In this document: positions 5,142 through 48,582 of the stretch, in pieces
How the letters are laid out: each line of letters starts with the position of its first letter
How positions within the stretch are numbered: the first letter of the stretch is position 1
Assembly (NCBI RefSeq): GCF_000002865.3
Contig: NW_001865083.1
Location: forward strand, 39,585-91,038
Length of the DNA: 51,454 nucleotides
Direction: 5' to 3'
Source of the DNA: Monosiga brevicollis MX1
Lineage: Eukaryota
Notes under the pieces: model-generated
What the model was told of the DNA's origin: nothing
Databases searched by the model: none
The model's input: only the letters and a program-made list of their open reading frames with translations
Program-made: the position numbers and the translations under genes

Positions 5142-7356
5142 ATGGTGTCGCCTTGGGTCGTGTGCAGTCTACTTGTGGTGATGGGGCCAGCAGTGGTTGG
5201 CGCCAGTGACGAATCAATAATCACGACTGATGCGCAGGGTAACCTCGTCATCAACGCCTCGTCAACAGGTGGCGATGCACGGGTTTGGATTAACGGAGTC
5301 GACGTGCTTCAAGAGCTGGCTGAGCTCCGCGAGATCTTGTTGGATCGCAAAACAACACCGACAGCATTGCCTCCCAGCACCACGGCCGCTCCCACAAACG
5401 CGCCTGTGACGTATACAGGCGATATCGGCTGTGGACTGGAGAACGTGCCCTTAGATGTCACGCATATCTTGGGCAACGTCAGCCTGATTTCGTGCCCCCT
5501 TCTCACAGCAAATGATCTCCTGCAAGCTTTTGGCAAGCTTGTTCAAGTGAGCGGGGACTTGACAGTAAGAGTGAGTTTCGATGGAGGATCATTGCCTGTT
5601 GTCTGTACATTGATGGGCGCGAACTGTATACCACGTCCCATCCTATTGAGGATTTCGCGGTGTAGCGATGCGAGCTCATCATCATTGGCTCTGAATGCAA
5701 TGCGATCATCCCAACTTTCGATGTGCCCATGGACGTGTGTGAGAGGGGCCAATCGGGAAAGATGAGCAATTTTGAGCGACTCAGTTTGTGCTCTGTTGAT
5801 GGTTGCAGGACAATGGCGCCCTGATTCATTTGGATGGGCTTGCAACTCTCACCAGCGTGGGCGGCGATTTGAATATTCGTGTACGTTGTCGCATGAGAGC
5901 GCATGGGCTTGATGTGACATGTGTTGACGAGGAGGGCAGCAAACTGGGACGATTGAGTGTGGGTCTGATGTGATGTGGTTATTCTCTGGCTGTCGCAGAA
6001 CAATTACAACCTGACCAACGTGAACGGCCTTGGCAATGTCACCAGCGTTGGCGACTATTTGAGCATCTACGTACGTTGTCGCACGAGAGGGGATGAAATT
6101 GATGTGACGTGTGTGAACGAGGAGGTCCGTGGACTGGGAGAATTGGGTGTGTTATTGACCGTTTGATGTGATGTGTTATTTCTCTGGCTGTCGCAGAGAA
6201 ATGCCGCCCTGACCAACGTGGACGGCCTTGGCAGTATCACCAGCATTGGCGACTATTTGAGCATTGGTGTACGTTGTCGCATGAGAGGGCATGAAGTTGA
6301 TGTGACGTGTGTGGACGAGGAGGTCCGTGGACTGGGACATTTGGGTGTGCTATTGACCGTTTGCTGTGGTGTGTTGTTTCTCTGGCGGTCGCAGGACAAT
6401 GACGTCTTGACCAACGTGGACGGTCTTGGCAGTGTCACCAGCGTTGGTGACTACTTATACATCTACGTACGTTGTCGCATGAGAGGGCATGAAGTTGATG
6501 TGACGTGTGTGGACGAGGGGATCAGCGGGCTGGGAGAATTTGGTTATGTTTGTGAGGGTCTGATGTGATGTGTTATTTCTCTGGCTGTCGCAGAGCAATG
6601 ACGCCTTGACCAACGTGGACGGCCTTGGCAATGTCACCAGCGTGGGCGACTTCTTGCGCATCTACGTACGTTGTCGCATGAGAGGGCATGAAGTTGATGT
6701 GACGTGTGTGGACGAGGGGATCAGCGGGCTGGGAGAATTTGGTATGTTTGTGAGGGTCTGATGTGATGTGTTGTTTCTCTGGCTCTCGCAGGACAATGGC
6801 GCCTTGACCAACGTGGACGGCCTTGGCAGTGTCACCAGCGTAGGCGACTATTTGAGCATTGACGTATGTTGTCGCATGAGAGGGGACGAAATTGATGTGA
6901 TGTGTGTGGACGAGGGGATCAGCGGGCTGGGAGAATTTGGTGTGTTTGTGAGGGTCTGATGTGATGTGTTGTTTCTCTGGCGGTCGCAGTACAATGATGT
7001 CTTGGCCAACGTGGACGGCCTTGGCAATATCACCAGCGTTGGCGACTACTTATACATTCGTGTACGTCGTCACATGAGAGGGCATGAAGTTGATGTGACG
7101 TGTGTCGGACGAGGAGGTCAGCAGACTGGGAGAATTCGGTATGTTTGTGAGGGTCTGATGTGATGTGCTGTTTCTCTGGCTGTCGCAGTACAATGCCGCC
7201 TTGACCAACGTGGACGGCCTTGGCAGTGTCACCAGCGTTGGTGGCAATTTGGTAATTTGTTCAAACTCTCAACTTGACACATCAATGGTACCTGCCTCTG
7301 TTCGATCGCTGGGCACATGCCAACGGATCACGAGCGGAGGTTGCGGCTTTTGTTGA
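5142..7356 (+). CDS. Secreted receptor-L-domain/LRR-like solenoid protein, locus A (9 exons)
   Basis: Exon 1 5142-5570: signal peptide, shared INGVDV module, Thr/Pro linker, YTGDI..first L turn. Seven 72-nt phase-0 exons: 5809-5880, 5999-6070, 6197-6268, 6395-6466, 6594-6665, 6792-6863, 6990-7061, consensus xNxxLTNVDGLGxxTSVGxxLxIx, each flanked by CAG and GTA(C/T)GT. Terminal exon 7189-7356 has a Cys cap ending GCGFC*. Confidence 0.88.
5809..7260 (+). repeat. Tandem ~198-bp exon+intron repeat array (8 repeat-coding exons)
   Basis: Recurrent TCTCTGGCTGTCGCAG...ACCAACGTGGACGGCCTTGGCA...GTACGTTGTCGCATGAGAGGG with ~190-199-bp period. Confidence 0.95.
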
Positions 7357-7854: not shown

Positions 7855-9159
7855 ATGACGCGCGCGATGCGGATGCGGGCGCGACGACTCGTGCCACTGG
7901 TGTGCAGCGTCGTCTGCCTGGTCTGGGCTGTTGTGGCTGCCAGTGATGGTGGTGATAATGAGCCGACGATTACCGTGGGTGAGGATGGTACGCTGTTTGT
8001 GAATTCGAGCAAGCGTGTGGTGATCAATGGGGTGGATGTGTTGGCCGTGATGGCGTCGATCGCCGTGGATTTGAACCCGCGGGGCGTGATGCAGCCGCTG
8101 GAGAGTCACAACATCTCCACGGACGCGCAGGGTACACAGTCGGTGTATGTGGCAGATCTGGACAACAATGGCTTTATCGATGTCCTCAGCGCCAGCAATC
8201 ACGACGACAAGATTGCATGGTATCGCAATAACGGCAACGGCTCCTTTTCCGAAGAAATCATCATCACAACAGAGGCTCACGTTGCCACCTCGGTGTACGC
8301 AGCAGATCTCAACAATGACGGCGACCTTGACGTTCTCAGCGCCAGTTCTGAAGACAACACGATTGCTTGGTATCGCAACAACGGCGACGCCACCTTTTCT
8401 ACGGAGATGGTGATCACCACAGAAGCCCACAAGGCCGCCTCGGTGTATGCGGCGGACCTGGACAAGGACGACGACCTCGACGTCCTGAGCGCCAGCTCCG
8501 AGGACAACACGATTGCATGGTATCGCAACAATGGGGATGAGACTTTTTCCCCAAAGATCAACATTACCACGGACGCCAACGGTGCCTTCTCGGTGTATGC
8601 GGCCGATTTGGATAACGATGGCCATGTTGATGTTCTGAGCGCCAGCGTGGACGACAACAAGATTGCTTGGTATCGCAACCATGGGAACGGCACCTTCTCT
8701 GCACAACGCGTCATCACTACAGATGCCAACTATGCACGCTCTGTGTCTGCGGCGGATCTGGACAACGATGGCAATCTCGACGTTCTCAGCGCCAGCTGGA
8801 ACGACGACAAAATTGCCTGGTACCGCAACAACGGCAATGGCACCTTTTCCACCCAGATTGTCATCACCACCGACGCCGACAACGCAATCTCGGTGCATGC
8901 GGCGGATCTGGACAAGGATGGCTACGCCGACGTTCTCAGCGCCAGTGTCCACGACGACAAGATTGCGTGGTATCGCAACAACCGTGACGGCACTTTCTCC
9001 TCGCAGATCGTCATCACCAGAGACGTCGATGGTGCCCACTCGGTGATTGCAGCGGATCTGGACAACGATGGTCACATTGACGTTCTCAGCGCCAGCAAAC
9101 TCGACAACAAGATTGCTTGGTACCGCAATCAAGCAGGGCAAATCCTGTTGAATATGTAG
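7855..9159 (+). CDS. Secreted 7-bladed FG-GAP/VCBS-like beta-propeller protein 1, intronless
   Basis: Single ORF with hydrophobic signal (LVPLVCSVVCLVWAVVAA), INGVDV module, and seven ~49-aa repeats SVYAADLDNDGxxDVLSAS..DNKIAWYRN containing DxDxDG Ca-binding loops. Confidence 0.92.
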   Translation: MTRAMRMRARRLVPLVCSVVCLVWAVVAASDGGDNEPTITVGEDGTLFVNSSKRVVINGVDVLAVMASIAVDLNPRGVMQPLESHNISTDAQGTQSVYVADLDNNGFIDVLSASNHDDKIAWYRNNGNGSFSEEIIITTEAHVATSVYAADLNNDGDLDVLSASSEDNTIAWYRNNGDATFSTEMVITTEAHKAASVYAADLDKDDDLDVLSASSEDNTIAWYRNNGDETFSPKINITTDANGAFSVYAADLDNDGHVDVLSASVDDNKIAWYRNHGNGTFSAQRVITTDANYARSVSAADLDNDGNLDVLSASWNDDKIAWYRNNGNGTFSTQIVITTDADNAISVHAADLDKDGYADVLSASVHDDKIAWYRNNRDGTFSSQIVITRDVDGAHSVIAADLDNDGHIDVLSASKLDNKIAWYRNQAGQILLNM

Positions 9160-9700
9160 ACAAGTAGACTCGATGCCGTGCTCCCTCAAGCAAATTGATG
9201 AATTTTTTTGGACCCCCCATTTTTTTCTGCCTGACGCAGACGCAGGCTGCCTCGCGTGTTCTCCTGGTGAGAACAATGACCAAGCCAAGGCAATGAGCTC
9301 CAGCCTGAGGCATGTCGTCAGGGATGCAGAGGCCGTGCGGAACAACCGAGTCAAACTTATCTGGATTCTCAGCCACTGAGCAAATCTGACACACGTTCAA
9401 CGGCGATCTGAACCCAAAGATCCCCCCCAACCGCTCCCACTACGCCGCGGTAGCACCCGCTGGCCGGGTCTTGACCTTCCAGGGGAAAATAAAAAATTTA
9501 ATCTGATCAAAATTCAATTTTACACTCTTGAAACTTTAAGTCAACTACATGTACAAGTAGCGTCGATGTAAAAGTTTACAAGTCCAACAACAAGTAACGT
9601 CGATGTAAAAGTTTACACGTTGAAGTTTATCTGACAAATATAAACTTTACATCGGATGTCATTTTTTTTTTCTTTTGAGGACGAGGAGGACCATTGCGCG

Positions 9701-10975
9701 ATGCGGGCCCGGGGCCGGGCGCGAGTACTCGTGTGTAGCGTCTTCCTGGTCTGGGCTGTTGTGGCTGCCAGGGATGAGGAGCCGGTGTTTGCTGTGGATG
9801 ATGAGGGCACGCTGTTTATAAATTCGAGCAATCGCGTGGTGGTCAATGGGGTGGATGTGCTGGCCGTGTTGAGGACGATTGCCGTCGATTTGGATCCGCA
9901 GCGCGTGATGGAGCCGCTGGAGAGTCACAACATCTCCCTCAGTGCTGTCAATGTCTACACGGTGTATGCGGCAGATCTGGACAACGATGGCTATATCGAC
10001 GTTGTCAGCGCCAGCAACAACAACAAGATTGCATGGTACCGCAACGATGGCGATGGTGCGTTTTCTTCGCCGCGCGTCATCGCAACAAACGTCAGTGATG
10101 CCACCTCGGTGTTTGCGAGCGACTTGGACAATGACGGCCACCTGGACATTCTCAGCGCCAGTTGGCACGAGAATGCAATTGCGTGGTACCACAACAACGG
10201 CAACAGCACCTTTTCAACCCAGAAGGTCATCACCACGGAGGCGGCAGGTGCCCATTCGGTGTATGCGACGGACCTGGACAACGACGGCGACATGGACGTG
10301 CTCAGCGCCAGTTCTCGTGACGACAAGATTGCGTGGTACCGCAACAACGGCGATGGCTCCTTTTCCACCCAGATGGTCATCTTTGACGATCTCGACTTTG
10401 CGTACTCTGTGTATGCGGCAGATTTGGACAATGACGGTGACCTCGACGTCTTGGCTGCCGGAGCGGAGGACAACGCGATTGCGTGGTATCGCAATCATGG
10501 CAATGGCACGTTTTCTTCTCAAAAAGTCATTACCACAGACGCCGAGTATGCAACCTCGGTTTATGCCGCGGACCTGGACAACGACGGCGATATCGACGTC
10601 CTCAGTGCCAGCTGGAACGACGATAAAATTGCCTGGTACCGCAACCACGGCAATGGCACCTTCTCTCCCCAGATTGTTATTACGACAGAGGCCAATAGGG
10701 CCATCTCAGTGTATGCGAGGGACCTGGACAACGACGGCTATATCGACGTCCTGAGCGCCAGTGCTTTCGACGACAAGATTGCGTGGTATCACAACAACCG
10801 TGACGGCACCTTTTCCTCCCAAATCGTCATCACCACAGACGCCGACTATGCACGTGCGGTGCATGCGGCAGATCTGGACAACGACGGCTACCTTGACGTC
10901 CTAAGCGCCAGTGCGACCGACAACAAGATTGCCTGGTATCGCAATCAGGTGGGACAAGTGCTATTTAATTTTTAG
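9701..10975 (+). CDS. Secreted 7-bladed FG-GAP beta-propeller protein 2, intronless
   Basis: Paralog of 7855-9159. Likely start MRARGRARVLVCSVFLVWAVVAA; seven DLDNDG repeats. Confidence 0.92.
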   Translation: MRARGRARVLVCSVFLVWAVVAARDEEPVFAVDDEGTLFINSSNRVVVNGVDVLAVLRTIAVDLDPQRVMEPLESHNISLSAVNVYTVYAADLDNDGYIDVVSASNNNKIAWYRNDGDGAFSSPRVIATNVSDATSVFASDLDNDGHLDILSASWHENAIAWYHNNGNSTFSTQKVITTEAAGAHSVYATDLDNDGDMDVLSASSRDDKIAWYRNNGDGSFSTQMVIFDDLDFAYSVYAADLDNDGDLDVLAAGAEDNAIAWYRNHGNGTFSSQKVITTDAEYATSVYAADLDNDGDIDVLSASWNDDKIAWYRNHGNGTFSPQIVITTEANRAISVYARDLDNDGYIDVLSASAFDDKIAWYHNNRDGTFSSQIVITTDADYARAVHAADLDNDGYLDVLSASATDNKIAWYRNQVGQVLFNF

Positions 10976-11204
10976 TCAAATGCCAGCTGCTCGCCAAATT
11001 CTTCCAGCCAATTGACATTTGAAGCTGTTTCTCTTTTCGCCGACCTGGTTCATGCTGACGGCATATCCCACCAAGCCGTGCTGCAAGCTCAGTGAACACT
11101 GCATCATCTTCCCTCTCTTTCCTCAGCGTTGTTCAGGGGTTGCTTGCACATTCAGACCCGACTGCGTGCTGGTCAAGAGTAAAATATTATTTGGAGAAGA
11201 GGTC

Positions 11205-11245
<41 letters not shown>

Positions 11246-11680
11246 CTTGTTTTGAACAACGACCAGCGGTCACCAGGCCTAAATACCAATGTGCTGGTGG
11301 CGATCCGAACCACACCCGCATCAACGTGATTGCTTTATGCATCAACAAAAGTGTCTACCTTTATCGAATCTCCCTTGGGTGCGATAGTGGCAAAAGGCGC
11401 AATGGCTCGAGGATTTGTTCCAGCAAACCATTTCAACGAGGCCAACATGCGTTTCCTCAAAGCGATCCTCAGCCGATGCCTCAATGTCGAGTTCAGCAAG
11501 CCTCACCGACCGAACAGGAAGCACGTCCAAATTCACATCCGAACCACTGTGTGGCGCTCTCACCTCAATTTAAATCCGGTATAAAAATTCAAATTTAAAA
11601 CTCAATGAAGGATGAGATTTCATCTGACATTTCAGATCGTTTGTATTTTACTTTTCAGCTGTCGCACTCAAAATCTCACG

Positions 11681-12946
11681 ATGCGAGTTCGGGCACAACG
11701 GCGACTGATCTGCAGCGTCCTTCTGGTTTGCGCCGTGGGTGCCAGTGGTCAGGATCCATCCATTGCCGTGGATGAGGATGGGGCGCTGTTGATCAACGCG
11801 AGCAACCGTGTGGTGTTTAATGGTGTGGATGTGCTGGCCGTGCTCACGGCGATGGCTGTTGATTTGAACCCGCGGCGCGTGATGGCACCACTGGAGAGTC
11901 ACACGATTACCACCAACGCCATGTCGGCGCGTTCAGTGTATGCGGCAGATCTGGACAATGACGGCCATATCGACGTGCTCAGTGCTAGCTCGGCCGATGA
12001 CAAAATTGCCTGGTATCACAACCATGGTAACGGCACCTTCTCTACACAGAACATCATCGCCACAAACGAAACTGACACCTACTCGGTGTTTGCGGCAGAT
12101 CTGGACAACGATGGTCATACTGACGTCCTCAGCACCAGCTTCCTGGAGCACAGGGTTGCGTGGTATCGCAACCGTGGTGACGGCACGTTTTCCTCGCGGC
12201 GCATTGTCACCACTGACGCCGATGGTGCAATCGCAGTGTATGCGGCCGACCTGGACAACGACCGTGATCTCGACATTCTCAGCGCCAGTCGCGACGATCA
12301 CAAGATTGCCTGGTACCGCAACAATGGTGACGGCACTTTTTCCTCCCAAAAGGTCATCACCACCAATGTCGATGGTGCCGACTCGGTGTTTGCGGCAGAC
12401 CTGAACAACGACGGCGCCCTCGACATTCTCAGTGCCAGCCGCGACGACAACCAGATTGCCTGGTACCGCAACGATGGCGATGGCAACTTTTCCACACAGA
12501 TGGTCATTACCACAGATGCCGATGGCGCCATGTCGGTGTTTGCGGCTGACCTGGACAACGACGGTGCCGTGGATGTCCTCAGCGCTAGCCATCATGACAA
12601 CAAGATTGCGTGGTACCGCAACAATGGTGACGGCAACTTTTCCGCACAGATGGTCATCACCACAGAGGCCGAAGGCGCGAGCTCAGTCTATGCGGTGGAC
12701 TTGGACAACGACGGCCACCTCGACGTCCTGAGCGCCAGCTCCAGCGACGGCAAAATTGCGTGGTACCGTAACAACGGTGACGGCACGTTTTCTTCGCAAA
12801 TTGCCATTGTGACGGAGGGGGGTGGGGCCCACTCGGTATTTGCGGCAGATTTGGACAATGACGGCCACCTCGACGTCCTCGGTGCCATTACCTACGAGAA
12901 CAAGATTGCGTGGTACCGCAATCAAATTGGTCAAATGCTTTTATAA
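11681..12946 (+). CDS. Secreted 7-bladed FG-GAP beta-propeller protein 3, intronless
   Basis: Likely start MRVRAQRRLICSVLLVCAVGA; module PSIAVDEDGALLINASNRVVFNGVDVL; seven repeats. Confidence 0.92.
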   Translation: MRVRAQRRLICSVLLVCAVGASGQDPSIAVDEDGALLINASNRVVFNGVDVLAVLTAMAVDLNPRRVMAPLESHTITTNAMSARSVYAADLDNDGHIDVLSASSADDKIAWYHNHGNGTFSTQNIIATNETDTYSVFAADLDNDGHTDVLSTSFLEHRVAWYRNRGDGTFSSRRIVTTDADGAIAVYAADLDNDRDLDILSASRDDHKIAWYRNNGDGTFSSQKVITTNVDGADSVFAADLNNDGALDILSASRDDNQIAWYRNDGDGNFSTQMVITTDADGAMSVFAADLDNDGAVDVLSASHHDNKIAWYRNNGDGNFSAQMVITTEAEGASSVYAVDLDNDGHLDVLSASSSDGKIAWYRNNGDGTFSSQIAIVTEGGGAHSVFAADLDNDGHLDVLGAITYENKIAWYRNQIGQMLL

Positions 12947-13341
12947 ACTTGCTTGGCGGCTGCGCGCGTCTGACCAGCCAAACTGCTCTGCACCGAGAGT
13001 GCCGCAACATCGCGCCCAACAGCGCCGCGCGACCATTGATCAGGCCAGGAGCATTTCTGCCAATGCGTCACCCCTGCAGTGCACAGCGTCTCCGCTCGGG
13101 TACCTTGGTCTCTAAAGGAATACGAATGCACACTTCTGACTGTACCTGAATTCAAGAGAAAAGAATGCAATTCATAAACACTGTCTCTTATCATCAAGAA
13201 CAACTTCTTTACCACACGTAACAGCAAAAAGAGCTTTGAATTTTTATAACATTCGGATGTAAACTTTCATAATAAATTAAAAATGTCAGAATATTATGAC
13301 ATCTGAGCACTTTCTTTTTTCTTTTGGTGTTCAAGAGCTCG

Positions 13342-14619
13342 ATGATGATGCGGGCACTGGTGGCGTCCAGCGTCCTCGTGCTTCTGGGCTGGGCTGTGAC
13401 GGCCAGTGAGGATGATGATGTGCCGGTTATTGCCGTGGGTGAGGATGGGGCGTTGTTGATCAATGCGAGCAATCGTGTGGTGGTCAATGGTGTGGATGTG
13501 CTGGCCGTGCTCACGGCGATGGCGATTGATTTGAACCCGCGGCGTGTGATGGCCCCTGTGGAGAGTCACGCGATTACCGCCAACGCCGGGTCGGCGCGTT
13601 CGGTGTATGCGGCAGATCTGGACAACGACGGACATATCGACGTCCTCAGTGCCAGCGTGTCGGACAGCAAGATTGCCTGGTATCGCAACAATGGCAACGG
13701 CACCTTCTCTACTCAGAACATCATCACCCGAAGCGCCGTTTCTGCCTTTTCGGTGTTTGCGGCCGACCTCGACCGTGACGGTGATACTGACGTTCTCAGC
13801 GCCAGCTTCACCGATGACAAGATTGCGTGGTATCGCAACCGTGGTGATGGCACGTTTTCCGCACAGATCACCATCAGTGCAGAGGCCGATGGTGCGTCCT
13901 CGGTGTACGCGGCGGACCTGGACGAAGATGGCGACTTTGACATTCTCAGCGCCAGCCACAAGGACGACAAGATTGCGTGGTACCGCAACAACGGCGATGG
14001 CAACTTTTCCGCACCGATTAACATCACCACAAACGCCGATGGTGCCTACTCGGTTTATGCGGCAGACCTGGACAACGACGGTGACATGGATGTTCTCAGC
14101 GCCAGCTACAACGACGACAAGATTGCGTGGTATCGCAACAATGGCGACGGCAACTTTTCCGCACCGATTAACATCACCACGGACGACAAGGGTGCGTCTT
14201 CAGTGTATGCGGCGGACCTGGACAACGACGGCGACATGGACGTGCTCAGCGCCAGTGTTCATGACGACAAGATTGCGTGGTACCGCAATCATGGTAATGG
14301 CACCTTTTCCGCGCCAAACGTTGTCACCACAGACGCCCTCTACGCGCGCTCAGTGTATGCCGCAGACCTGGACAAGGATGGCAACCTGGACATTCTCAGT
14401 GCCAGTATTGATGACGACAAGATTGCCTGGTACCGCAATCATGGTAACGGCACCTTTTCCTCGCAGATGAGCATCACCACGGACGTCGGCGGTGCGTACT
14501 CGGTGTTTGCGGCGGACCTAGACAACGACGGCAACCTCGACGTTCTCAGTGCCGGCTCGCATGATGGCAAGATTACGTGGTATCGCAACCAGATGAGGCA
14601 AGTACTATTAAACTTGTAG
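13342..14619 (+). CDS. Secreted 7-bladed FG-GAP beta-propeller protein 4, intronless
   Basis: Start MMMRALVASSVLVLLGWAVTA; same module; seven repeats. Confidence 0.92.
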   Translation: MMMRALVASSVLVLLGWAVTASEDDDVPVIAVGEDGALLINASNRVVVNGVDVLAVLTAMAIDLNPRRVMAPVESHAITANAGSARSVYAADLDNDGHIDVLSASVSDSKIAWYRNNGNGTFSTQNIITRSAVSAFSVFAADLDRDGDTDVLSASFTDDKIAWYRNRGDGTFSAQITISAEADGASSVYAADLDEDGDFDILSASHKDDKIAWYRNNGDGNFSAPINITTNADGAYSVYAADLDNDGDMDVLSASYNDDKIAWYRNNGDGNFSAPINITTDDKGASSVYAADLDNDGDMDVLSASVHDDKIAWYRNHGNGTFSAPNVVTTDALYARSVYAADLDKDGNLDILSASIDDDKIAWYRNHGNGTFSSQMSITTDVGGAYSVFAADLDNDGNLDVLSAGSHDGKITWYRNQMRQVLLNL

Positions 14620-17583: not shown

Positions 17584-20430
17584 ATGCGGCTCAAACACCA
17601 AGCCAATGCCCATGCATGGATGTTGCTGGCAATCATGGCGATTGCGAGTCGGGGTAAGCTGAAAAAAAAATCTTGGCACACGCCGCGAACTCATGAAAAA
17701 AAAAAAAAGAGAGAGAGAGACAGAACCATCACGACTGATCCACCTCCGATGCCGATGGCACCTCATAGATGTGGCAGCCGATGTTCTTACAGTGTCCGTA
17801 GGATCTGGCAGCTTTGATGACCTTGGTGAGCTTTTCTTGATGGGATGCTAGTGCCGCAATCGCCTACCCTGCTTACGACATTTGACCGTACGTTGTAGAT
17901 CCCGTTGCTTGGGAAAGCGACATTTATCTGCAATTTGTCTTTGGCAACCGCGTCCACACTACAAGCACAATTGAAGACGACAACTGTGCGCCCCTTTGCC
18001 TTCACCCGCCTTTGCCCTCACCACACCATACGGACCGTGTTACTTCAGCTGATCCCACGCAACCTCGTCCCTTTCCTCCATTATTGCTCCCCTTTCGTTG
18101 CTCCCTTGCTCGGCCTTTAGACCCCGACTGGAATGGACAGACGATTACCATTTCTTTGGTTTCTAGAACCGTCAGTGGCTCGCCGTGTGCTCATCCCCTT
18201 CGGCCTTGGACATTGATTTATCTTGCTCATGCCGTATTCCGGGCCATGCCCTTGCCCGCACGGGTGACGCTTTGCATTGACCTGCTAGTCATCGATAACT
18301 GTCCGCGCTTACGACGCTGACGTCGGTTCACTCGACGAATCAGTTAGTCTATCAATGCCAAACTCTTTCCTTCCCACCCCATGTTTGATTCCTGATTCGA
18401 CCTGACAAGCGCACTTGCCTTCCCCCCTTCATCAGGCAGGCTCGACAACCATGAGCAGCATCCATGTGTATCGGCAACGCCGTACACTGAGATTCTCTCG
18501 CGGTTCAGTCTCAGTCACTCTCACATACAACCCTTGTGAGTACCCATCGCCAAGCATCTTGACCGGCTTGAAGGGCTCATGACGTTTGTCCTTCACCCAT
18601 TCTACACAATCGAGCGCAGATAATGTTTGTTACGCAGGCACCGACAACTGCGGAAGCAACACGGCCTGCGTGTTCACAGGCCATAGGGCCTACGTCTGCC
18701 AATGTAACGCGGGCTACTATCACCCCTATAGCGGGAGCAGGAACGGCATCTCATGCACCCCTTGGCAACAATGCAATGGCACTGAATACGAGCACAACGA
18801 ACCAAACGCCGTGACAGATCGAGAGTGTCGAACCTGCGTGACTACCTCATATGGAGCCGATCCGACACGCGGGGATCAAGTAGTTGCCGTTGACAACTGC
18901 GGCGGCCTTCGCTTCGAAGCCACTGCAGGCGTCCACATGAACGGGGTCAACGTCCTTGACCGCTTGAACGTGCTCGAGGATCTCGTCAAACTTCATCCCG
19001 GATTTGTCGTGCCTGAACCCGAGACACTTGTGGCCAATACCGATGCACCATCCATTGCTGTGGACAACAACGGCACCCTCCACATCAACGCCTCAGGTCG
19101 CATCCTGATCAACGGCGCTGATCTCGCCGAGCGCTTTACCCTGCTTGAAGCGTTGGCTCAGCTCCACCCCGATCTGCCACCGCCTCCACCCAACGAGCAT
19201 CAGAGCAATGTCACCGAGCCCTCCATCTCCATCGGCGACAACAACTACCTGCTCATCGACGCCACCAATGGCATTCTGATTAATGGCGTCGATGCCTTGG
19301 AGCGGCTGCAAGTTGTAAAATCGCTGGTGCAGCTCCACCTCGAATCACTGGTGCCGCAGTTTGAGAGGCGTGCCATTTCCACCACCGCCGACGGAGCATC
19401 TGTGGTGCTTGCAGTCGACCTGGACAACGACGGCAACGTGGATGTCCTCGGTGCCAGCATAGAGGACAGCACCATTGCGTGGTTCCGCAACAGTGGAAAC
19501 GGCTCTTCTTTCCAGCGAAACGTCATTACGGCCTCTGCAGTCGATATCGCGTCAGTGCATGCGGCAGACCTGGACGGCGATGGCGACAGCGACGTCCTCA
19601 GCGCCAGCTTTATCGATGACAGAATTACGTGGTACCGCAATAACGGAAACGGGACATTTGATGATCATGTTACCATTACCAACGCGGCTACTGAAGCGCG
19701 CTCAGTGTACGCAGCGGATCTGGACAATGACGGCGACCTCGATGTCCTGAGCGCCGCCTATGGTATCGACACCATTGCGTGGTATCGCAATGATGGCACC
19801 TTTTCCGGCCCAATTGTCATCACCAACGCTGCCAACGGCGCGTTCTGCGTACATGCAGCTGACCTTGATAACGACGGAGATATGGATGTCCTCAGTGCTA
19901 ACTCAGTTGGCAATACGATCACCTGGTACCGCAACGACGGCACGGGCGTGTTTCCGCAGACACTGTTCGTTGCTTCCTCTGTCGATAGCCCGCGATCCGT
20001 CTATGCAGCAGATCTCAATCAGGATGGCTTCTTGGATGTCATCAGTGCCAACAGTGGCGACAATAGTATCGCATGGTACCAAAACCAGGGTGGCACTGGG
20101 TTTTCAGCGCCACATGTCATCACTACGACTGCCTCCTATGCCTTGGCAGTCTACGCAGCGGATCTGGATCAAGATGGGGACATGGACGTTCTCAGCGCTA
20201 GCGTAGTTGATAACAAAATTGCTTGGTATCGCAACAATGGCCAAGGCTCCTTTTCCAGCCCTTTTGTCATCTCGACCTCCGCCCTTTACGCGTATTCAGT
20301 CTACGCTGCAGACCTGGACCACGACGGTGATTTGGACGTACTCAGTGCCAGCAATTCCGACAACACGATTGCGTGGTACGCCTCCAATAGCCAACAGAAC
20401 GACAGACTCCGAGACAGTATCCGGACGTGA
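17584..20430 (+). CDS. Secreted multidomain protein: signal peptide - C2 domain - EGF - TNFR-like Cys repeat - 3x INGVDV module - 7-bladed FG-GAP propeller (7 exons)
   Basis: Phase-consistent exons 17584-17653, 17769-17825, 17899-17985, 18121-18170, 18289-18342, 18436-18535, 18620-20430. They give DVLTVSVGSGSFDDLDPVAWESDIYLQFVFGNRVHTTSTIEDDNYPDWN...ITVRAYDADVGSLDESAG (C2 pattern), a 6-Cys EGF, CTPWQQC..TDREC, and seven DLDNDG blades. Confidence 0.82.
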
Positions 20431-30651: not shown

Positions 30652-39457
<8,806 letters not shown>

Positions 39458-43287: not shown

Positions 43288-46200
43288 ATGGTGTCGCCTT
43301 GGGTCGTGTGCAGTCTACTTGTGGTGATGGGACCAGCAGTGGTTCACGCCGGTGACGAATCAATGATCACGACTGATGCGCAGGGTAACCTCGTTATCAA
43401 CGCCTCGTCAACAGGTGGAGATAAACGAATTTGGATGAACGGAGTCGATGTACTTCGGGAGCTGGCTGAGCTCCGCGAGATCTTGCTGGACCACAAAACA
43501 ACACCGACAACATTGACCCCCAGCACCACGGCCGCTCCCACGAACGCGCCTGTGACGTATACAGGCGATATCGGCTGTGGACTGGAGAACGTGCCCTCGG
43601 ATGTGACGCATATCTTGGGCAACGTCAGCCTGATTTCGTGCCCCCTTCTGACAGCAAATGATCTCCTGCAAGCTTTTGGCAAGCTTGTTCAAGTGAGCGG
43701 GGACTTGACAGTAAGAGTGAGTTTCGATGGAGGATCATTGTCTGTTGTCTGTACATTGATGGGCGCGAACTGTATACCACGTCCCATCCTATTGAGGATT
43801 TCGCGGTGTAGCGATGTGAGCTCATCATCAATGGCTCTGAATGCAATGCGATCATCCCAACTTTCGATGAGCTCATGACATGTGTGAGAGGCACCAATCG
43901 GGAAAGATGAGCAATTTTGAGCGACTCAGTTTGTGCTCTGTTGATGGTTGCAGGACAATGGCGCCCTGATTCATTTGGATGGGCTTGCAACTCTCACCAG
44001 CGTTGGCGGCGATTTGAATATTCGTGTACGTTGTCGCATGAGAGCGCATGGGCTTGATGTGACATGTGTTGACGAGGAGGGCAGCAAACTGGGACGATTG
44101 AGTGTGGGTCTGATGTGATGTGGTTATTCTCTGGCTGTCGCAGAACAATTACAACCTGACCAACGTGGACGGCCTGGGCAATATCACCAGCGTGGGCAGC
44201 TCCTTGAGCATTGGTGTACGTTGTGGCATGAGGGGGCATGAGATTGGTGGACGAGGAGGTCCGCGGACTGAGACGATTGAGTGTGTTTGTGAGGGTCTGA
44301 TGTGATGTGTTGTTTCTCTGGCTATCGCAGAACAATGTCGCCCTGACCAACGTGGACGGCCTGGGCAATATCACCAGCGTTGGCGGCTACTTGAGCATTC
44401 TAGTACGTTGTGGCATGAGAGGGCATGAAATTGACGTGACGTGTGTGAACGAGGAGGTCAGAATTAGATGTGTTTGTGAGGGTCTGATGTGATGTGTTAT
44501 TTTTCTGGCTGGCGCAGGGCAATGGCGCCCTGACCAACGTGGACGGCCTGGGCAATATCACCAGCGTTGGCGACTATTTGAGCATTACGTACGTTGTGGC
44601 ATGAGAGGGGATGAAATTGATGTGACGTGTGTGAACGAGGAGGTCCGTGGACTGGGACAATTGGGTGTGTTATTGACCGTTTGATGTGATGTGTTATTTC
44701 TCTGGCTGTCGCAGAGAAATGCCGCCCTGACCAACGTGGATGGCCTTGGCAGTATCACCAGCATTGGCGACTACTTATACATTGGTGTACGTTGTGGCAT
44801 GAGAGGAAATGAAATTGATGTGTCGTGTGTGGAAGAGCAGGTCCGCGGACTTGGAGAGTTGGATGCGTTTGCGAGGGTCTGATGTGATGTGTCATTTCTC
44901 TGGCTGTCGCAGAACAATGGCGACCTGACCAACGTGGACGGCCTTGGCAATATCACCTGGTTGGCGGCTACTTGAGCATTGCTGTACGTTGTCGCTTGAG
45001 AGGGCCTGAAATTGAGGTGACGTGTGTGGACGAGCAGGTCCGCGGACTGGGAGAATTGGAAGTGTTTGCGAGGGTTGGATGTGATATGTCATTTTTCTGG
45101 CTGGCGCAGGGCAATGACGTCCTGACCAACGTGGACGGCCTGGGCAATATCACCAGCGTTGGTGACTACTTATACATTGGTGTACGTTGTCGCATGAGAG
45201 GAAATGAAATTGATGTGTCGTGTGTGGAAGAGCAGGTCCGCGGACTTGGAGAGTTGGATGTGTTTGCGAGGGTTGGATGTGATGTGTCATTTCTCTGGCT
45301 GTCGCAGAACAATGGCAACCTGACCAACGTGGACGGCCTTGGCAACATCACCAGCGTTGGCGGGTATTTGACCATCTACGTACGTTGACGTATGAGAGGG
45401 GATGAAATTGATGTGACGTGTGTGAACGAGGAGGTCCGTGGACTGGGAGAATTGGGTGTGTTATTGACCGTTTGATGTGATGTGATATTTCTCTGGCTAT
45501 CGCAGAACAATGACGCCTTGACCAACGTGGACGGCCTGGGCAATATCACCCGCGTTGGTGGCTACATGAGCATTGGTGTACGTTGTCGCATGAGACGGCA
45601 TGAAATTGATGTGACGTGTGTGGAAGAGCAGGTCCGCGGACTGTGAGAGTTGGATGTGCGTTTGAGGGTCTTGATGTGATGTGGTATTTTTCTGGCTGTC
45701 GCAGGGCAATGGCGCCCTGACCAACATGGACGGCCTGGGCAATATCACCAGCGTGGGCAGCTCCTTGAGCATTGGTGTACGTTGTGGCATGAGGGGGCAT
45801 GAGATTGGTGGACGAGGAGGTCCGCGGACTGAGACGATTGAGTGTGTTTGTGAGGGTCTGATGTGATGTGTTGTTTCTCTGGCTGTCGCAGGACAATGGC
45901 AACCTGACCAACGTGGACGGCCTGGGCAATATCACCAGCGTTGGCGGCCACTTGAGCATTCAAGTACGTTGACGTATGAGAGGGCATGAAATTGACGTGA
46001 CGCGTGTGGACGAGGAGGTCCGTGGACTGGGACAATTGGGTGTGTTATTGACCGTTTGATGTGATGTGTTATTTCTCTGGCTGTCGCAGAACAATGCCGC
46101 CCTGACCAACGTGGGCGGCCTTGGCAATATCACCAGCGTTGGCGGCGACTTATACATTGGTGTACGTTGTCGCATGAGAGGGGATGAAATTGACGTGACG

Positions 46201-47212
46201 CGTGTGGACGAGGAGGTCCGTGGACTGGGACAATTGGGTGTGTTATTGACCGTTTGATGTGATGTGTTATTTCTCTGGCTGTCGCAGAGAAATGCCGCCC
46301 TGACCAACGTGGACGGCCTTGGCAATATCACCAGCATTGGCGACTACTTGAGCATTGGTGTACGTTGTCGCATGAGAGGGGATGAAATTGATGTGACGTG
46401 TGTGGACGAGGACCGGGACAATTGGGTGTGTTATTGACCGTTTGATGTGATGTGTTATTTCTCTGGCTGTCGCAGAGAAATGCCGCCCTGACCAACGTGG
46501 ACGGCCTTGGCAGTATCACCAGCGTGGGCGACTATTTGAGCATTGGTGTACGTTGTCGCATGAGAGGGGATGAAATTGATGTGACGTGTGTGAACGAGGA
46601 CTGGGACAATTGGGTGTGTTATTGACCGTTTGATGTGATGTGTTATTTCTCTGGCTGTCGCAGAGAAATGCCGCCCTGACCAACGTGGACGGCCTTGGCA
46701 GTATCACCAGCGTGGGCGGCGCTTTGAGCATTTGTGTACGTTGTCGCATGAGAATCAATGAAATTGCCTATGTGACGTTGTGTGAACGATCACAGGGACA
46801 ATTGGGTGTGTTATTGACCGTTTGATGTGATGTGTTATTTCTCTGGCTGTCGCAGAGAAATGCCGCCCTGACCAACGTGGACGGCCTTGGCAGTATCACC
46901 AGCGTGGGCGACTATTTGAGCATTGGTGTCCAACTCTCGCATGAGAGGGGATGAAATTGATGTGACGTGTGTGAACGAGGACTGGGACAATTGGGTGTGT
47001 TATTGACCGTTTGATGTGATGTGTTATTTCTCTGGCTGTCGCAGAGAAATGCCGCCCTGACCAACGTGGACGGCCTTGGCAGTATCACCAGCGTGGGCGG
47101 CGCTTTGAGCATTTGTTCCAACTCTCAACTTGACACATCAATGGTACCTGCCTCTGTTCGATCGTTGGGCACATGCCAACTCATCACGAGCGGAGCTTGC
47201 AGCTCTTGCTGA
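43288..47212 (+). CDS. Secreted receptor-L-domain/LRR-like solenoid protein, locus B (18 exons; two repeat exons are 71 nt and frameshifted)
   Basis: Exon 1 43288-43716 is near-identical to locus A. Repeat exons start at 43954, 44144, 44331, 44518 (71 nt), 44715, 44913 (71 nt), 45110, 45308, 45506, 45705, 45892, 46090, 46288, 46476, 46664 and 46856. Terminal exon 47045-47212 ends ACSSC*. Confidence 0.82.
43954..47116 (+). repeat. Tandem ~187-198-bp exon+intron repeat array (17 repeat-coding exons)
   Basis: Same unit as 5809-7260. Confidence 0.95.
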
Positions 47213-48582
47213 ACTGCTGCAAGTTATTGCTAGCTTTTTTCTGAAGTTTCGGGTTTTGGCTACAAGCTAAGTCCAATTTGACTACAAGCACTGACCGGTT
47301 CAGGAAGCTATCGCTGCCGACGCTGCTTGTTATATCAAATCATCGTAAATCTGTTCACTATGGGCCCGCCGCCCGTAATTGGCAGTGTGCTCTGAATGTT
47401 TCCTTTATATGTTCATGCTCTTTATTGCTCTTCCAAACACAATCGTATCGTTTCACTGATTCCTTAAGGAAGCCAATCTATTGGAGAACAAGCATCGACC
47501 ACCTACCAGAACCTTCTGAAAGGATCCGGTCCCTTTGGCTTGGGTCCATCATGCTCTCCCTCCTCTTCAGTGAGCCGAGCTGAGTTGTCGAGCCAGTGTG
47601 CCAGTTGTCGTGCCAACCGTGAAAACGGATCAAATAAAAATAAAAAATAAAATTTCAAAATGAATCCGGTTGTCAATGCATCCCGAGCCTCCTAGCCGTT
47701 GGCGCCGAGGTCGTCGGCCTTCTCCTTCGACCGTTTTCTTGTTGTCAACCAACAAGTCAATGCGAATTGTCCAACATCAGGACTGTTGGCTGGCGTTGCC
47801 TCTCAAGGTTGAAGATTGCGCTCAGCCCTGCTTCTTGTCATTGCGGCTCGCCGGAACCCTGCGCCCTGGCTGCCCTTTCTCATCACCTGTTGGCTGAACA
47901 ACTTGTCACCCCCAGCCACGCGTCTCTCGACCCTTAAGGATTTCAGTGGTATATGAAAAAAAACAGAACGCCGTGAAAGGTGTATCTCTGAAATGTGTCG
48001 AGATGCGCTCACACTCATCACCGTGAAGGGATTCATGGTCATCACCTCATTTCCCCTCATGACGACGTGTCTGACATTTTCCGCCACGGAGGAACACACT
48101 CTCTACCCGATGCATCGATTCTGATGACATCTCTCAAAAGCCGTTGTATTTAGCTTGTGGAGTTTATGGAAGTCGCCTCGAATCTCTGAAAGTGAGGCAG
48201 GGACACGAGCATCTCTCTTCTTCTCTCTCTCACTGCGAACGCGCGCTCTCTCTCACACATTTTCGACGCCGACGGCTGCGCAGCGGATCGACCACTGGAG
48301 CTGTTTGCGAGATCAAGAGCTCTACCGTCACAGCGTCACAGGGTGCAAGGTGTGCATTTTGCATTCTCCTAGCGCGCGTACTAGCAGAGACCGCTTGCAG
48401 CGTGGGATCGAGTGATGCGTGCGGAGTCTTGTTTGGTGCTGCTGGCCTGCATTTGCTTGTTGGGGCGTGCCTCTTCCGCAGCCGCGCCTGCCGCCGACGC
48501 TTGTGTCGCCGATTCCGCCCGTGGTTGTGCCACCAGCGAGCTTCCAGCTTCATCGCCGGCCAGTGCCCACCCCTACGCCACC

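What the first reader, a model, noticed from the sequence alone, without database searches (positions are those of the whole stretch)
43954..47212. One-repeat-per-exon cassette array: 72-nt phase-0 exons in near-identical introns encoding a variable solenoid (candidate diversifying recognition protein)
Seen: each unit is CAG|24 codons|GTACGT plus a conserved intron. The scaffold LTNVDGLG..TS.G..L.I is nearly fixed, while positions 1, 3, 4, 19, 20, 22 and 24 vary (e.g. GSSLSIG, GGYLSIL, GDYLYIG, GGYLTIY, GGHLSIQ, GGDLYIG). Established: in L-domain/LRR solenoids the x positions of LxIxxN form the ligand-binding sheet; symmetric phase-0 exons can be skipped or duplicated without frameshift; brown-algal LRR-ROCO genes use a similar 72-nt exon-per-LRR design. 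Inference: unequal crossover and/or combinatorial exon skipping produces a repertoire of secreted binders, perhaps for prey or pathogen recognition, in a unicellular holozoan.
Basis: partly seen in the sequence, partly recalled or inferred. Interest (0 to 1): 0.85.

Follow-up and report, generated by a model that had tools for sequence, protein, structure and literature searches.

The report
Choanoflagellate exon-per-repeat secreted binding solenoid
A spliced gene of the choanoflagellate Monosiga brevicollis builds a likely secreted rod-shaped protein from 72-base exons, one repeat each, whose predicted binding face varies while its frame stays fixed; the repeats were likely reshuffled in the DNA, and no combinatorial exon skipping was seen.

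Summary
The array is real. Gene B (ATG 43288) has a 143-codon first exon and 17 repeat exons. Fourteen are 72 nt and phase 0, two are 71 nt in this assembly, and the last is 168 nt. An intact 8-exon paralog (A, 5142-7356) matches the annotated Monosiga brevicollis protein MONBRDRAFT_34686.

RNA-like contigs show splicing at the predicted borders. The repeat is a receptor-L-domain/LRR solenoid whose closest relatives found are intronless bacterial proteins that vary at the same positions. The variable codons map to the outward side of the main strand in a paralog model. Omega at fixed sites is 1.8-3.6 (p 0.10 to below 1e-4 by tree), but the site-free test is not significant. A conversion tract between A and B and unlinked exon halves point to DNA-level shuffling. 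The N-terminal module is predicted to self-associate.

No exon had two different successors among the spliced joints listed. Two joints at odds with the assembly (12 to 11, and 11 to a later exon) fit a different genomic order better than skipping; the array's 3' half looks misassembled. Ligand and immune role are untested. Verdict: a new variant of the brown-algal exon-per-repeat design, secreted rather than cytoplasmic.

The parts
43288..43716 (+). Gene B exon 1 (143 codons): signal peptide (about residues 1-21), N-terminal module, Thr/Pro-rich linker, N-cap of the solenoid; phase-0 donor GTGAGT
   Evidence: ORF start; hydropathy maximum 2.05 at residue 1; joint 43716 to 43954 GT..AG in X3 (this joint is shared with gene A); B-specific contig 43302-43572 with 0 differences in X3
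43351..43503 (+). N-terminal hairpin-plus-helix module, predicted to self-associate; shared with the other family members and with the propeller genes of this window
   Evidence: Alignment; three-copy model ipSAE 0.73 against best control 0.02; no Pfam hit; no Atlas hit at 0.9 or more
43717..43953 (+). Intron 1 (237 nt), unrelated to the repeat introns
   Evidence: Skip of 237 with GT..AG ends in X3, absent in X1 and X2
43894..44167 (+). Likely gene-conversion tract shared with gene A (1 difference in 274 nt, including a whole 118-nt intron)
   Evidence: 40 differences in the 674 nt before it; Poisson P 1.5e-6
43954..44025 (+). Repeat exon 1 (72 nt, first and diverged repeat; same protein sequence as in gene A)
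44144..46927 (+). Repeat exons 2-16 with homologous 115-127-nt introns, one 24-residue L-domain repeat per exon, phase 0
   Evidence: GT..AG joints 7 to 8 in 4 of 4 runs, 8 to 9 in 2 of 4, 9 to 10 in 3 of 4
44518..44588 (+). Exon 4, 71 nt in the window (frameshift); assembly error or real lesion, unresolved
   Evidence: only a 72-nt form was laid here in X1 and X2, but it carries gene-A-type intron letters and may come from gene A (tables 3 and 4)
44913..44983 (+). Exon 6, 71 nt in the window (frameshift); assembly error or real lesion, unresolved
45892..46161 (+). Exons 11 and 12, whose order in RNA-like contigs differs from the window
   Evidence: Joints 46161 back to 45892 and 45963 to an exon beginning RNAAL in 4 of 4 runs; no 10-to-11 or 11-to-12 joint listed
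46476..47116 (+). Exons 14-17: an exact two-exon duplication with a chimeric donor at 46928; likely assembly artefact or very recent duplication
   Evidence: Exon 14 equals 16 and exon 15 equals the start of 17 (0 differences); donor GTCCAACT
47045..47212 (+). Terminal exon: last repeat plus Cys-rich C-cap and stop; no transmembrane or GPI-type hydrophobic tail
   Evidence: hydropathy maximum 0.96; contigs 47063-47250 with 0 differences in 4 of 4 runs
5142..7356 (+). Paralog gene A: exon 1 (5142-5570) and 8 repeat exons, frame intact; annotated as MONBRDRAFT_34686
   Evidence: 94.6% identity to B over 744 nt; junction letters in X3 match its consecutive exons (table 5c)

Best explanation
This is a spliced Monosiga brevicollis gene built of one-repeat exons, encoding a likely secreted, predicted oligomeric L-domain solenoid that likely binds foreign surfaces and is likely diversified by unequal crossover and gene conversion in the DNA rather than by exon skipping. 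Shown: the exon-intron layout, splicing at the borders for several exons, the paralog, the fixed scaffold and variable codons, and mosaic sharing of exon halves and introns. Predicted: the solenoid fold (model of paralog P0001) and self-association of the N-terminal module. Inferred: one phase-0 intron entered a bacterial-like 24-residue repeat just after the main strand, and the exon-plus-intron unit then multiplied. Crossovers in the conserved exon middle and in the homologous introns add, delete and recombine units without frameshift and keep the scaffold uniform. Selection likely favours new residues at codons 20, 22, 24 and 1, which flank the intron and line one face of the rod. A trimerising head on Thr/Pro stalks would give avidity. 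The ligand (bacterial prey, virus or self surface) is untested.
For: Layout and paralog. Splicing: GT..AG joints 7-8, 8-9 and 9-10 in RNA-like runs, none listed in DNA-like X1 and X2. Fold: PF01030 in paralogs at E 2e-9 and 4e-9; family profile hits ErbB3, EGFR, IGF1R and insulin receptor, best E 1.8e-10; model mean pLDDT 82, repeats 94-98, strand 177-180 equals codons 21-24; VIA Z 13-14 to LRR proteins and 11.1 to IGF1R, rmsd 2.7 over 131 residues. DNA shuffling: conversion tract P 1.5e-6; exons 2 and 10 share their last 30 nt and following intron (p 0.009) but not their starts; head and tail of the same exon unlinked (Mantel r 0.09, p 0.18) while neighbouring segments are linked (r 0.21-0.34, p 0.002-0.03, 17 units, 21 tests, uncorrected); P0117 is a mosaic of A and B; X1 and X2 hold an intron join absent from the window. 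Selection: codons 1 and 24 are more diverse than all 112 intron triplet windows, codons 3 and 22 than all but 4; fixed-site omega 1.8-3.6, p below 0.05 in 13 of 14 runs. Oligomer: ipSAE 0.73 against best control 0.02, runs agree in at least 96% of contacts, pLDDT at least 81; the mark was reached by 21 of 30 solved pairs and 0 of 23 single chains in microbes, and 17 of 29 and 0 of 30 in eukaryotes. Exon skipping is reported as rare in most unicellular holozoans (PMC6142364, passages).
Against: The site-free test M2a against M1a is not significant (p 0.16 and 0.25). The fixed-site test falls to p 0.10 and 0.035 on the tail-only tree; its sites were chosen knowing the data, branch lengths were scaled rather than fitted, and recombination inflates such tests. 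The same positions vary in bacterial-type relatives, so exposure alone explains part of the pattern. No ligand or induction data exist. The fold model is of a paralog and gave no coordinates, so the face assignment rests on strand alternation. The oligomer job had three copies, unlike its calibration, ignored my alignment, and may pass from memory of like structures. P0117 may be an assembly chimera. Gene B is out of frame as assembled. All RNA-like runs are one study and are contigs.
Confidence: 0.6

Rival explanations
1. Combinatorial exon skipping (Dscam-like or as reported for brown-algal ROCO) makes many isoforms from one gene. Because the intron splits the variable stretch, each skip would also create a new strand-turn junction.
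For: All intact exons are symmetric with near-identical splice sites. The joint from exon 11 to an RNAAL exon looks like a skip of exon 12 in 4 of 4 runs, and its 31-mer is not in the window-predicted mRNAs. Splice variants are reported for Ectocarpus ROCO (PMC11378527, section 15).
Against: The same four runs show exon 12 followed by exon 11 and list no 11-to-12 or 10-to-11 joint, which a skip from the window's order cannot give. No donor is listed with two kinds of successor. Junction letters attributable to gene A follow its genomic order for 2-3, 3-4, 4-5, 6-7 and 7-8 (table 5c, my reading). DNA-like runs hold an intron join not in the window. Skipping is reported as rare in most unicellular holozoans.
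Confidence: 0.1
2. The protein is a structural or spacer glycoprotein of the cell coat, like fungal Ecm33-type proteins (recalled as L-domain cell-wall proteins). The array turns over neutrally because homologous introns invite unequal crossover, and exposed codons merely drift.
For: Many repeats carry N-glycosylation sequons (13 of 17 in B; N or S toggle at codon 13). There is a Thr/Pro linker and no signalling domain. M2a is not significant. Bacterial-type relatives vary at the same sites. The 99-nt ankyrin exons nearby show that exon-per-repeat growth is a habit of this genome.
Against: Codons 1 and 24 exceed every intron window in diversity and fixed-site omega is about 2-3.5. Nonsynonymous distance at the seven variable codons is 0.43, against 0.21 synonymous elsewhere and 0.128 in introns. 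No GPI-type tail. The same repeats form the ectodomain of a predicted receptor tyrosine kinase, P0122, which suggests ligand binding.
Confidence: 0.25
3. Gene B is a decaying duplicate, or its 17-unit length is largely an assembly product, and only gene A and other paralogs are functional.
For: Two 71-nt exons, a chimeric donor and an exact two-exon duplication; RNA order differs from the window; DNA-like contigs laid on exon 12 differ from it (table 3).
Against: B-specific exon-1, exon 7-10 and 3' contigs with 0-1 differences and GT..AG joints occur in RNA-like runs. Fifteen of 17 exons keep the scaffold without a stop. Most units are mutually distinct, so they cannot be collapsed copies.
Confidence: 0.05

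Closest known systems
Ectocarpus and other brown-algal ROCO genes with exon-per-LRR arrays (PMC3341825, sections 15 and 24 part 1 read; PMC11378527, section 15 read)
   Same: One 72-nt, 24-residue repeat per exon; variable repeat number between recent duplicates; intra- and intergenic recombination; signs of diversifying selection; function in defence proposed but untested.
   Different: ROCO proteins carry ROC-COR GTPase domains, have phase-2 introns, non-coding and inverted spare exons in introns, and reported splice variants. Here the protein has a signal peptide and no signalling domain, the introns are phase 0, short and themselves part of the duplicated unit, and the repeat is L-domain type.
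Bacterial receptor-L-domain repeat proteins (PF01030; Bacteroidota T9SS cargo, Myxococcota, Luminiphilus L001)
   Same: Same 24-residue unit and the same variable positions; L001 repeats are 72-76% identical in DNA to window exons; Atlas TM 0.86; scaffold identity of B to unnamed P0033 is 0.88, against 0.56-0.64 to three Monosiga paralogs.
   Different: No introns; other N- and C-terminal domains; no shared N-terminal module found. Direction of any transfer was not tested.
L domains of EGFR/ErbB and insulin/IGF1 receptors
   Same: Profile match, best E 1.8e-10; fold match Z 11.1-11.5; the insulin receptor L1 face is a ligand-binding surface (PMC2577065, passages).
   Different: Genes A and B have 8-17 homogenised repeats, no furin-like, transmembrane or kinase part, and P0001 alone hits no PDB chain at E 1.
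Agnathan VLRs and arthropod Dscam (as described; otherwise recalled)
   Same: Modular repeat cassettes with a variable face; multivalent secreted form is a possible parallel (recalled for VLRB).
   Different: No somatic assembly, spare cassette pool or isoform repertoire is shown here.

Membership tests
Receptor L-domain proteins (PF01030) | Pfam match above the curated cut-off | tested here: met
   Paralogs P0001 and P0003 score 37.8 and 37.1 bits against cut-off 21.8; single window exons (5 pieces tried) give no hit, being too short. P0128, the annotation of gene A, is named Receptor L-domain by UniRef.
Receptor L-domain proteins (PF01030) | L-domain/LRR solenoid fold with a parallel sheet | tested here: met
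   AlphaFold model of paralog P0001; VIA Z 11-14 to LRR and L domains; Foldseek gave no match at E 0.001 or less, best L-domain rows about 0.01.
EGFR / insulin-receptor family | Cys-rich furin-like domain, transmembrane helix and tyrosine kinase | tested here: not met
   Genes A and B stop 31 residues after the last repeat, with no hydrophobic segment.
Brown-algal ROCO-type exon-shuffled LRR receptors | One 72-nt symmetric exon per repeat | tested here: met
   14 of 17 exons in B and 7 of 8 in A; phase 0 here, phase 2 in ROCO.
Brown-algal ROCO-type exon-shuffled LRR receptors | ROC-COR GTPase domain | tested here: not met
   Absent from both genes.
Brown-algal ROCO-type exon-shuffled LRR receptors | Spare non-coding or inverted repeat exons in introns | tested here: not met
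   All 23 repeat introns are 115-127 nt and align end to end; tblastn and blastn found no repeat unit outside the two arrays in this window.
Brown-algal ROCO-type exon-shuffled LRR receptors | Recombination within and between loci | tested here: met
   Conversion tract, mosaic units and unlinked exon halves.
Brown-algal ROCO-type exon-shuffled LRR receptors | Diversifying selection on exposed sheet residues | tested here: inconclusive
   M2a p 0.16 and 0.25; fixed-site omega 1.8-3.6, p 0.10 to below 1e-4.
Combinatorial-splicing repertoires (Dscam-like) | Many alternative isoforms from one locus | tested here: inconclusive
   No donor with two kinds of successor among 7 joint rows in 4 runs of one study; contigs drop rare variants.
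VLR-type somatic assembly | Somatic rearrangement differing between cells or clones | not testable with these tools
   Needs long reads from single clones; the order mismatch is compatible with it but also with misassembly or a third locus.
Fungal Ecm33-type wall proteins | C-terminal GPI signal | tested here: not met
   Terminal exon hydropathy maximum 0.96 over 19 residues; Ecm33 is GPI-anchored per search listing.

The most novel reading that the evidence does not exclude
The array rearranges within cultured clones, or is spliced combinatorially at low frequency, so that a single-celled relative of animals keeps a changing repertoire of secreted, multivalent solenoid binders built from a bacterial-derived repeat. 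The order mismatch between the reference and recent reads would be such a rearrangement caught in the act.
Probability: 0.12. Interest if true: 0.9.

Novelty: new variant of a known kind. Interest (0 to 1): 0.58.

Why it matters
How choanoflagellates recognise prey bacteria and viruses is open, and candidate variable receptors are few. This family (13 genes counted, one a predicted receptor tyrosine kinase) offers a testable set of secreted, likely multivalent binders with a fast-changing face. It shows the exon-per-repeat design of brown-algal candidate immune receptors arising again, on a different repeat, in the sister group of animals. Its nearest relatives found are intronless bacterial proteins, so it may record how a single intron turns a repeat protein into a frame-safe cassette array. 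It also gives L domains of the EGFR and insulin-receptor type a simple, homogenised relative in a pre-animal genome.

Tried and rejected
No whole genome was held, so intron positions in the other paralogs and a possible third close locus could not be checked. A scan of metagenome contigs for a 33-nt intron motif found 0 stretches. P0001 found no relative in prokaryote genomes by exact peptide patterns; P0012 found 7 loci, 3 covering the repeats. The N-terminal part of P0008 found only itself. No RNA holder was listed as such; X3, X5, X6 and X7 are taken as RNA from their GT..AG joints. Bins 44864-45010 and 46775-46921 had no cover in X1 and X2; a hole proves nothing and is not used. The extra base laid on exon 4 was first read as proof of an assembly error, then set aside because the contig carries gene-A-type intron letters. 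Circular RNA as the source of the 12-to-11 joint was rejected because no 11-to-12 joint is listed. M2a was not significant. The Atlas gave no named relative for the N-terminal module. Earlier scan findings by sequence were empty. Literature: searches listed no paper on this family by title or abstract start; PMC8662651 has no L-domain passage; the one supplement of PMC4046809 had none of 6 ids or terms (ids may be written otherwise). The 2008 kinome and genome papers were not held and may mention the L-domain kinase.
Full report
Observation. The array is far beyond chance: 16.1 copies of period 198, score 3684. Gene B starts at 43288, has a 429-nt first exon, a 237-nt intron and 17 repeat exons. 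Fourteen are 72 nt and phase 0, exons 4 and 6 are 71 nt, and the last is 168 nt with a Cys-rich cap. Fifteen of 16 repeat introns begin GTACGT and all end CGCAG; intron 16 begins with letters of the terminal exon. The introns are homologous, with mean p-distance 0.128 over 21. A second gene, A (5142-7356), has the same plan with 8 repeat exons and an intact frame.

Identity. P0128, named MONBRDRAFT_34686 of Monosiga brevicollis MX1, has gene A's exons letter for letter plus three stretches read from introns. Eleven further named Monosiga proteins carry related repeats, among them P0122, which by my reading has repeats, a transmembrane segment and a kinase domain (UniRef names it a protein kinase). 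Two unnamed Logan proteins, P0008 and P0120, share the N-terminal module and repeats. Most of the other 115 hits match the repeats only; many carry PF18962 or PF13860, and the two with a named organism are Flavobacterium and Myxococcales. The Atlas neighbours are bacterial clusters.

Protein. Exon 1 gives a hydrophobic N-terminus, and no later segment is hydrophobic, so the product is likely secreted and unanchored. Paralogs pass the PF01030 cut-off. A profile of 77 relatives hits ErbB3, EGFR, IGF1R and insulin receptor. The AlphaFold model of paralog P0001 is a regular solenoid whose main strand is codons 21-24 of the exon and which matches LRR and L domains at Z 11-14. With 21 and 23 as invariant or nearly invariant inward residues, 20, 22 and 24 and the next exon's codon 1 are inferred to lie on one outward face; no coordinates were available to measure this. 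The insulin-receptor L1 face is a binding surface (PMC2577065, passages). The intron therefore falls inside the variable stretch. Three copies of residues 22-72 fold together with ipSAE 0.73 against a best control of 0.02. This supports but does not show oligomerisation; only three copies were tried, and the calibration counts (21 of 30 and 0 of 23 in microbes; 17 of 29 and 0 of 30 in eukaryotes) hold only roughly.

Variation and selection. Nine of 24 codons never change amino acid over 21 exons; codons 1, 24, 3, 20, 22, 19 and 4 change most (first exons and the two 71-nt exons left out). Codons 1 and 24 are more diverse than all 112 intron triplet windows (17 units). My own codon model on 19 distinct exons gave no significant gain for a free positive class (p 0.16 and 0.25). 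Fixing the sites gave omega 1.8-3.6, with p below 0.05 in 13 of 14 runs and 0.10 in the other. The sites were known beforehand and recombination inflates such tests, so selection is suggested, not shown. The same positions are the most variable in 141 repeats from 110 other proteins, and six bacterial-type genes show the same uniform scaffold and variable face within one gene. The face pattern is thus older than the introns.

DNA-level shuffling. A and B differ at 40 of 674 positions in exon 1 and intron 1 but at 1 of the next 274 (P 1.5e-6). Exons 2 and 10 of B share their ends and following intron but not their starts; intron 2 of A is closest to introns 14 and 4 of B. Heads and tails of the same exon are unlinked, while adjacent segments are weakly linked. 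P0117, from an unnamed assembly, alternates A-type and B-type residues, though it may be an assembly chimera.

Splicing. In one search, X3 shows GT..AG joints and X1 and X2 show none, so I read X3 as RNA and X1 and X2 as DNA. At 97% likeness, four RNA-like runs of one study list seven joint rows: 7-8 (4 of 4), 8-9 (2 of 4), 9-10 (3 of 4), exon 11 to an RNAAL exon (4 of 4, over two rows), exon 12 back to exon 11 (4 of 4), and one that matches gene A's 2-3 junction. Joints 10-11 and 11-12 are not listed. Neither off-reference 31-mer occurs in the window-predicted mRNAs. A skip of exon 12 cannot explain 12 preceding 11. X1 and X2 hold an intron join (46594 to 45817) absent from the window, and loose ends show further exon types. 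The simplest reading is that the real genomic order, or another close locus, differs from this assembly, whose 3' half has two frameshifts, an exact duplication and a chimeric donor. My rough odds are misassembly 55, third locus 25, clonal rearrangement 15, splicing 5. Contigs drop rare variants, so minor skipping is not excluded. Skipping is reported as rare in most unicellular holozoans (PMC6142364, passages).

Mechanism. Most likely a bacterial-like L-domain repeat acquired one phase-0 intron, and the exon-plus-intron unit expanded and is reshuffled by unequal crossover and conversion. The result is a family of secreted, probably multivalent rods with differing faces, each gene giving mainly one isoform (confidence 0.6). 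Rivals are neutral turnover in a coat glycoprotein (0.25), combinatorial skipping (0.1) and a decaying or artefactual gene B (0.05). Transfer from bacteria is suggested by 72-76% DNA identity to Luminiphilus repeats but was not tested with a tree, and closeness to a repeat consensus could give the same result.

Comparison and novelty. It works like the Ectocarpus ROCO arrays: 72-nt exon per repeat, variable number, recombination (PMC3341825, sections 15 and 24 part 1; PMC11378527, section 15). It is not a member: no GTPase, a signal peptide, phase 0, no spare exons. Five searches listed no paper on this family, but two key 2008 papers were not held. An earlier scan note reports exon-per-ankyrin genes in this genome, and four such 99-nt exons lie in this window, so the design recurs here. 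Verdict: new variant of a known kind, interest 0.58.

Noticed in passing
window 25760-25662, 25576-25478, 25393-25295 and 22069-21971, minus strand: 99-nt phase-0 exons each encoding one ankyrin repeat, in two small ankyrin genes: the same exon-per-repeat design.
   Followed up: partly
window 7855-14619 (four ORFs) and 18937-20430: Five intronless ORFs with a 50-residue repeat that looks like an FG-GAP/VCBS propeller (label recalled, no Pfam scan run). They carry the same N-terminal module as the L-domain genes; 18937 has about three copies.
   Followed up: partly
P0122 (MONBRDRAFT_28254): Predicted receptor tyrosine kinase whose ectodomain is made of the same 24-residue repeats with aromatic-rich variable positions.
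   Followed up: no
codons 13-15 and 4-6 of the repeat exons: N-glycosylation sequons switch on and off between repeats (N 12, S 9 at codon 13).
   Followed up: partly
P0128, P0119, P0005: Public gene models of this family have insertions right after codon 24 of a repeat. In P0128 these are read-through introns, hinting that the paralogs share the intron position and are mis-annotated.
   Followed up: no
L001 1219-2282: Luminiphilus locus with intronless tandem L-domain repeats, uniform in DNA, found in two reading frames.
   Followed up: partly
window 35525-39457: 1310-residue ORF with repeated extracellular modules, a transmembrane segment, tyrosine-containing 13-residue repeats and two SH2-like domains by eye.
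   Followed up: no
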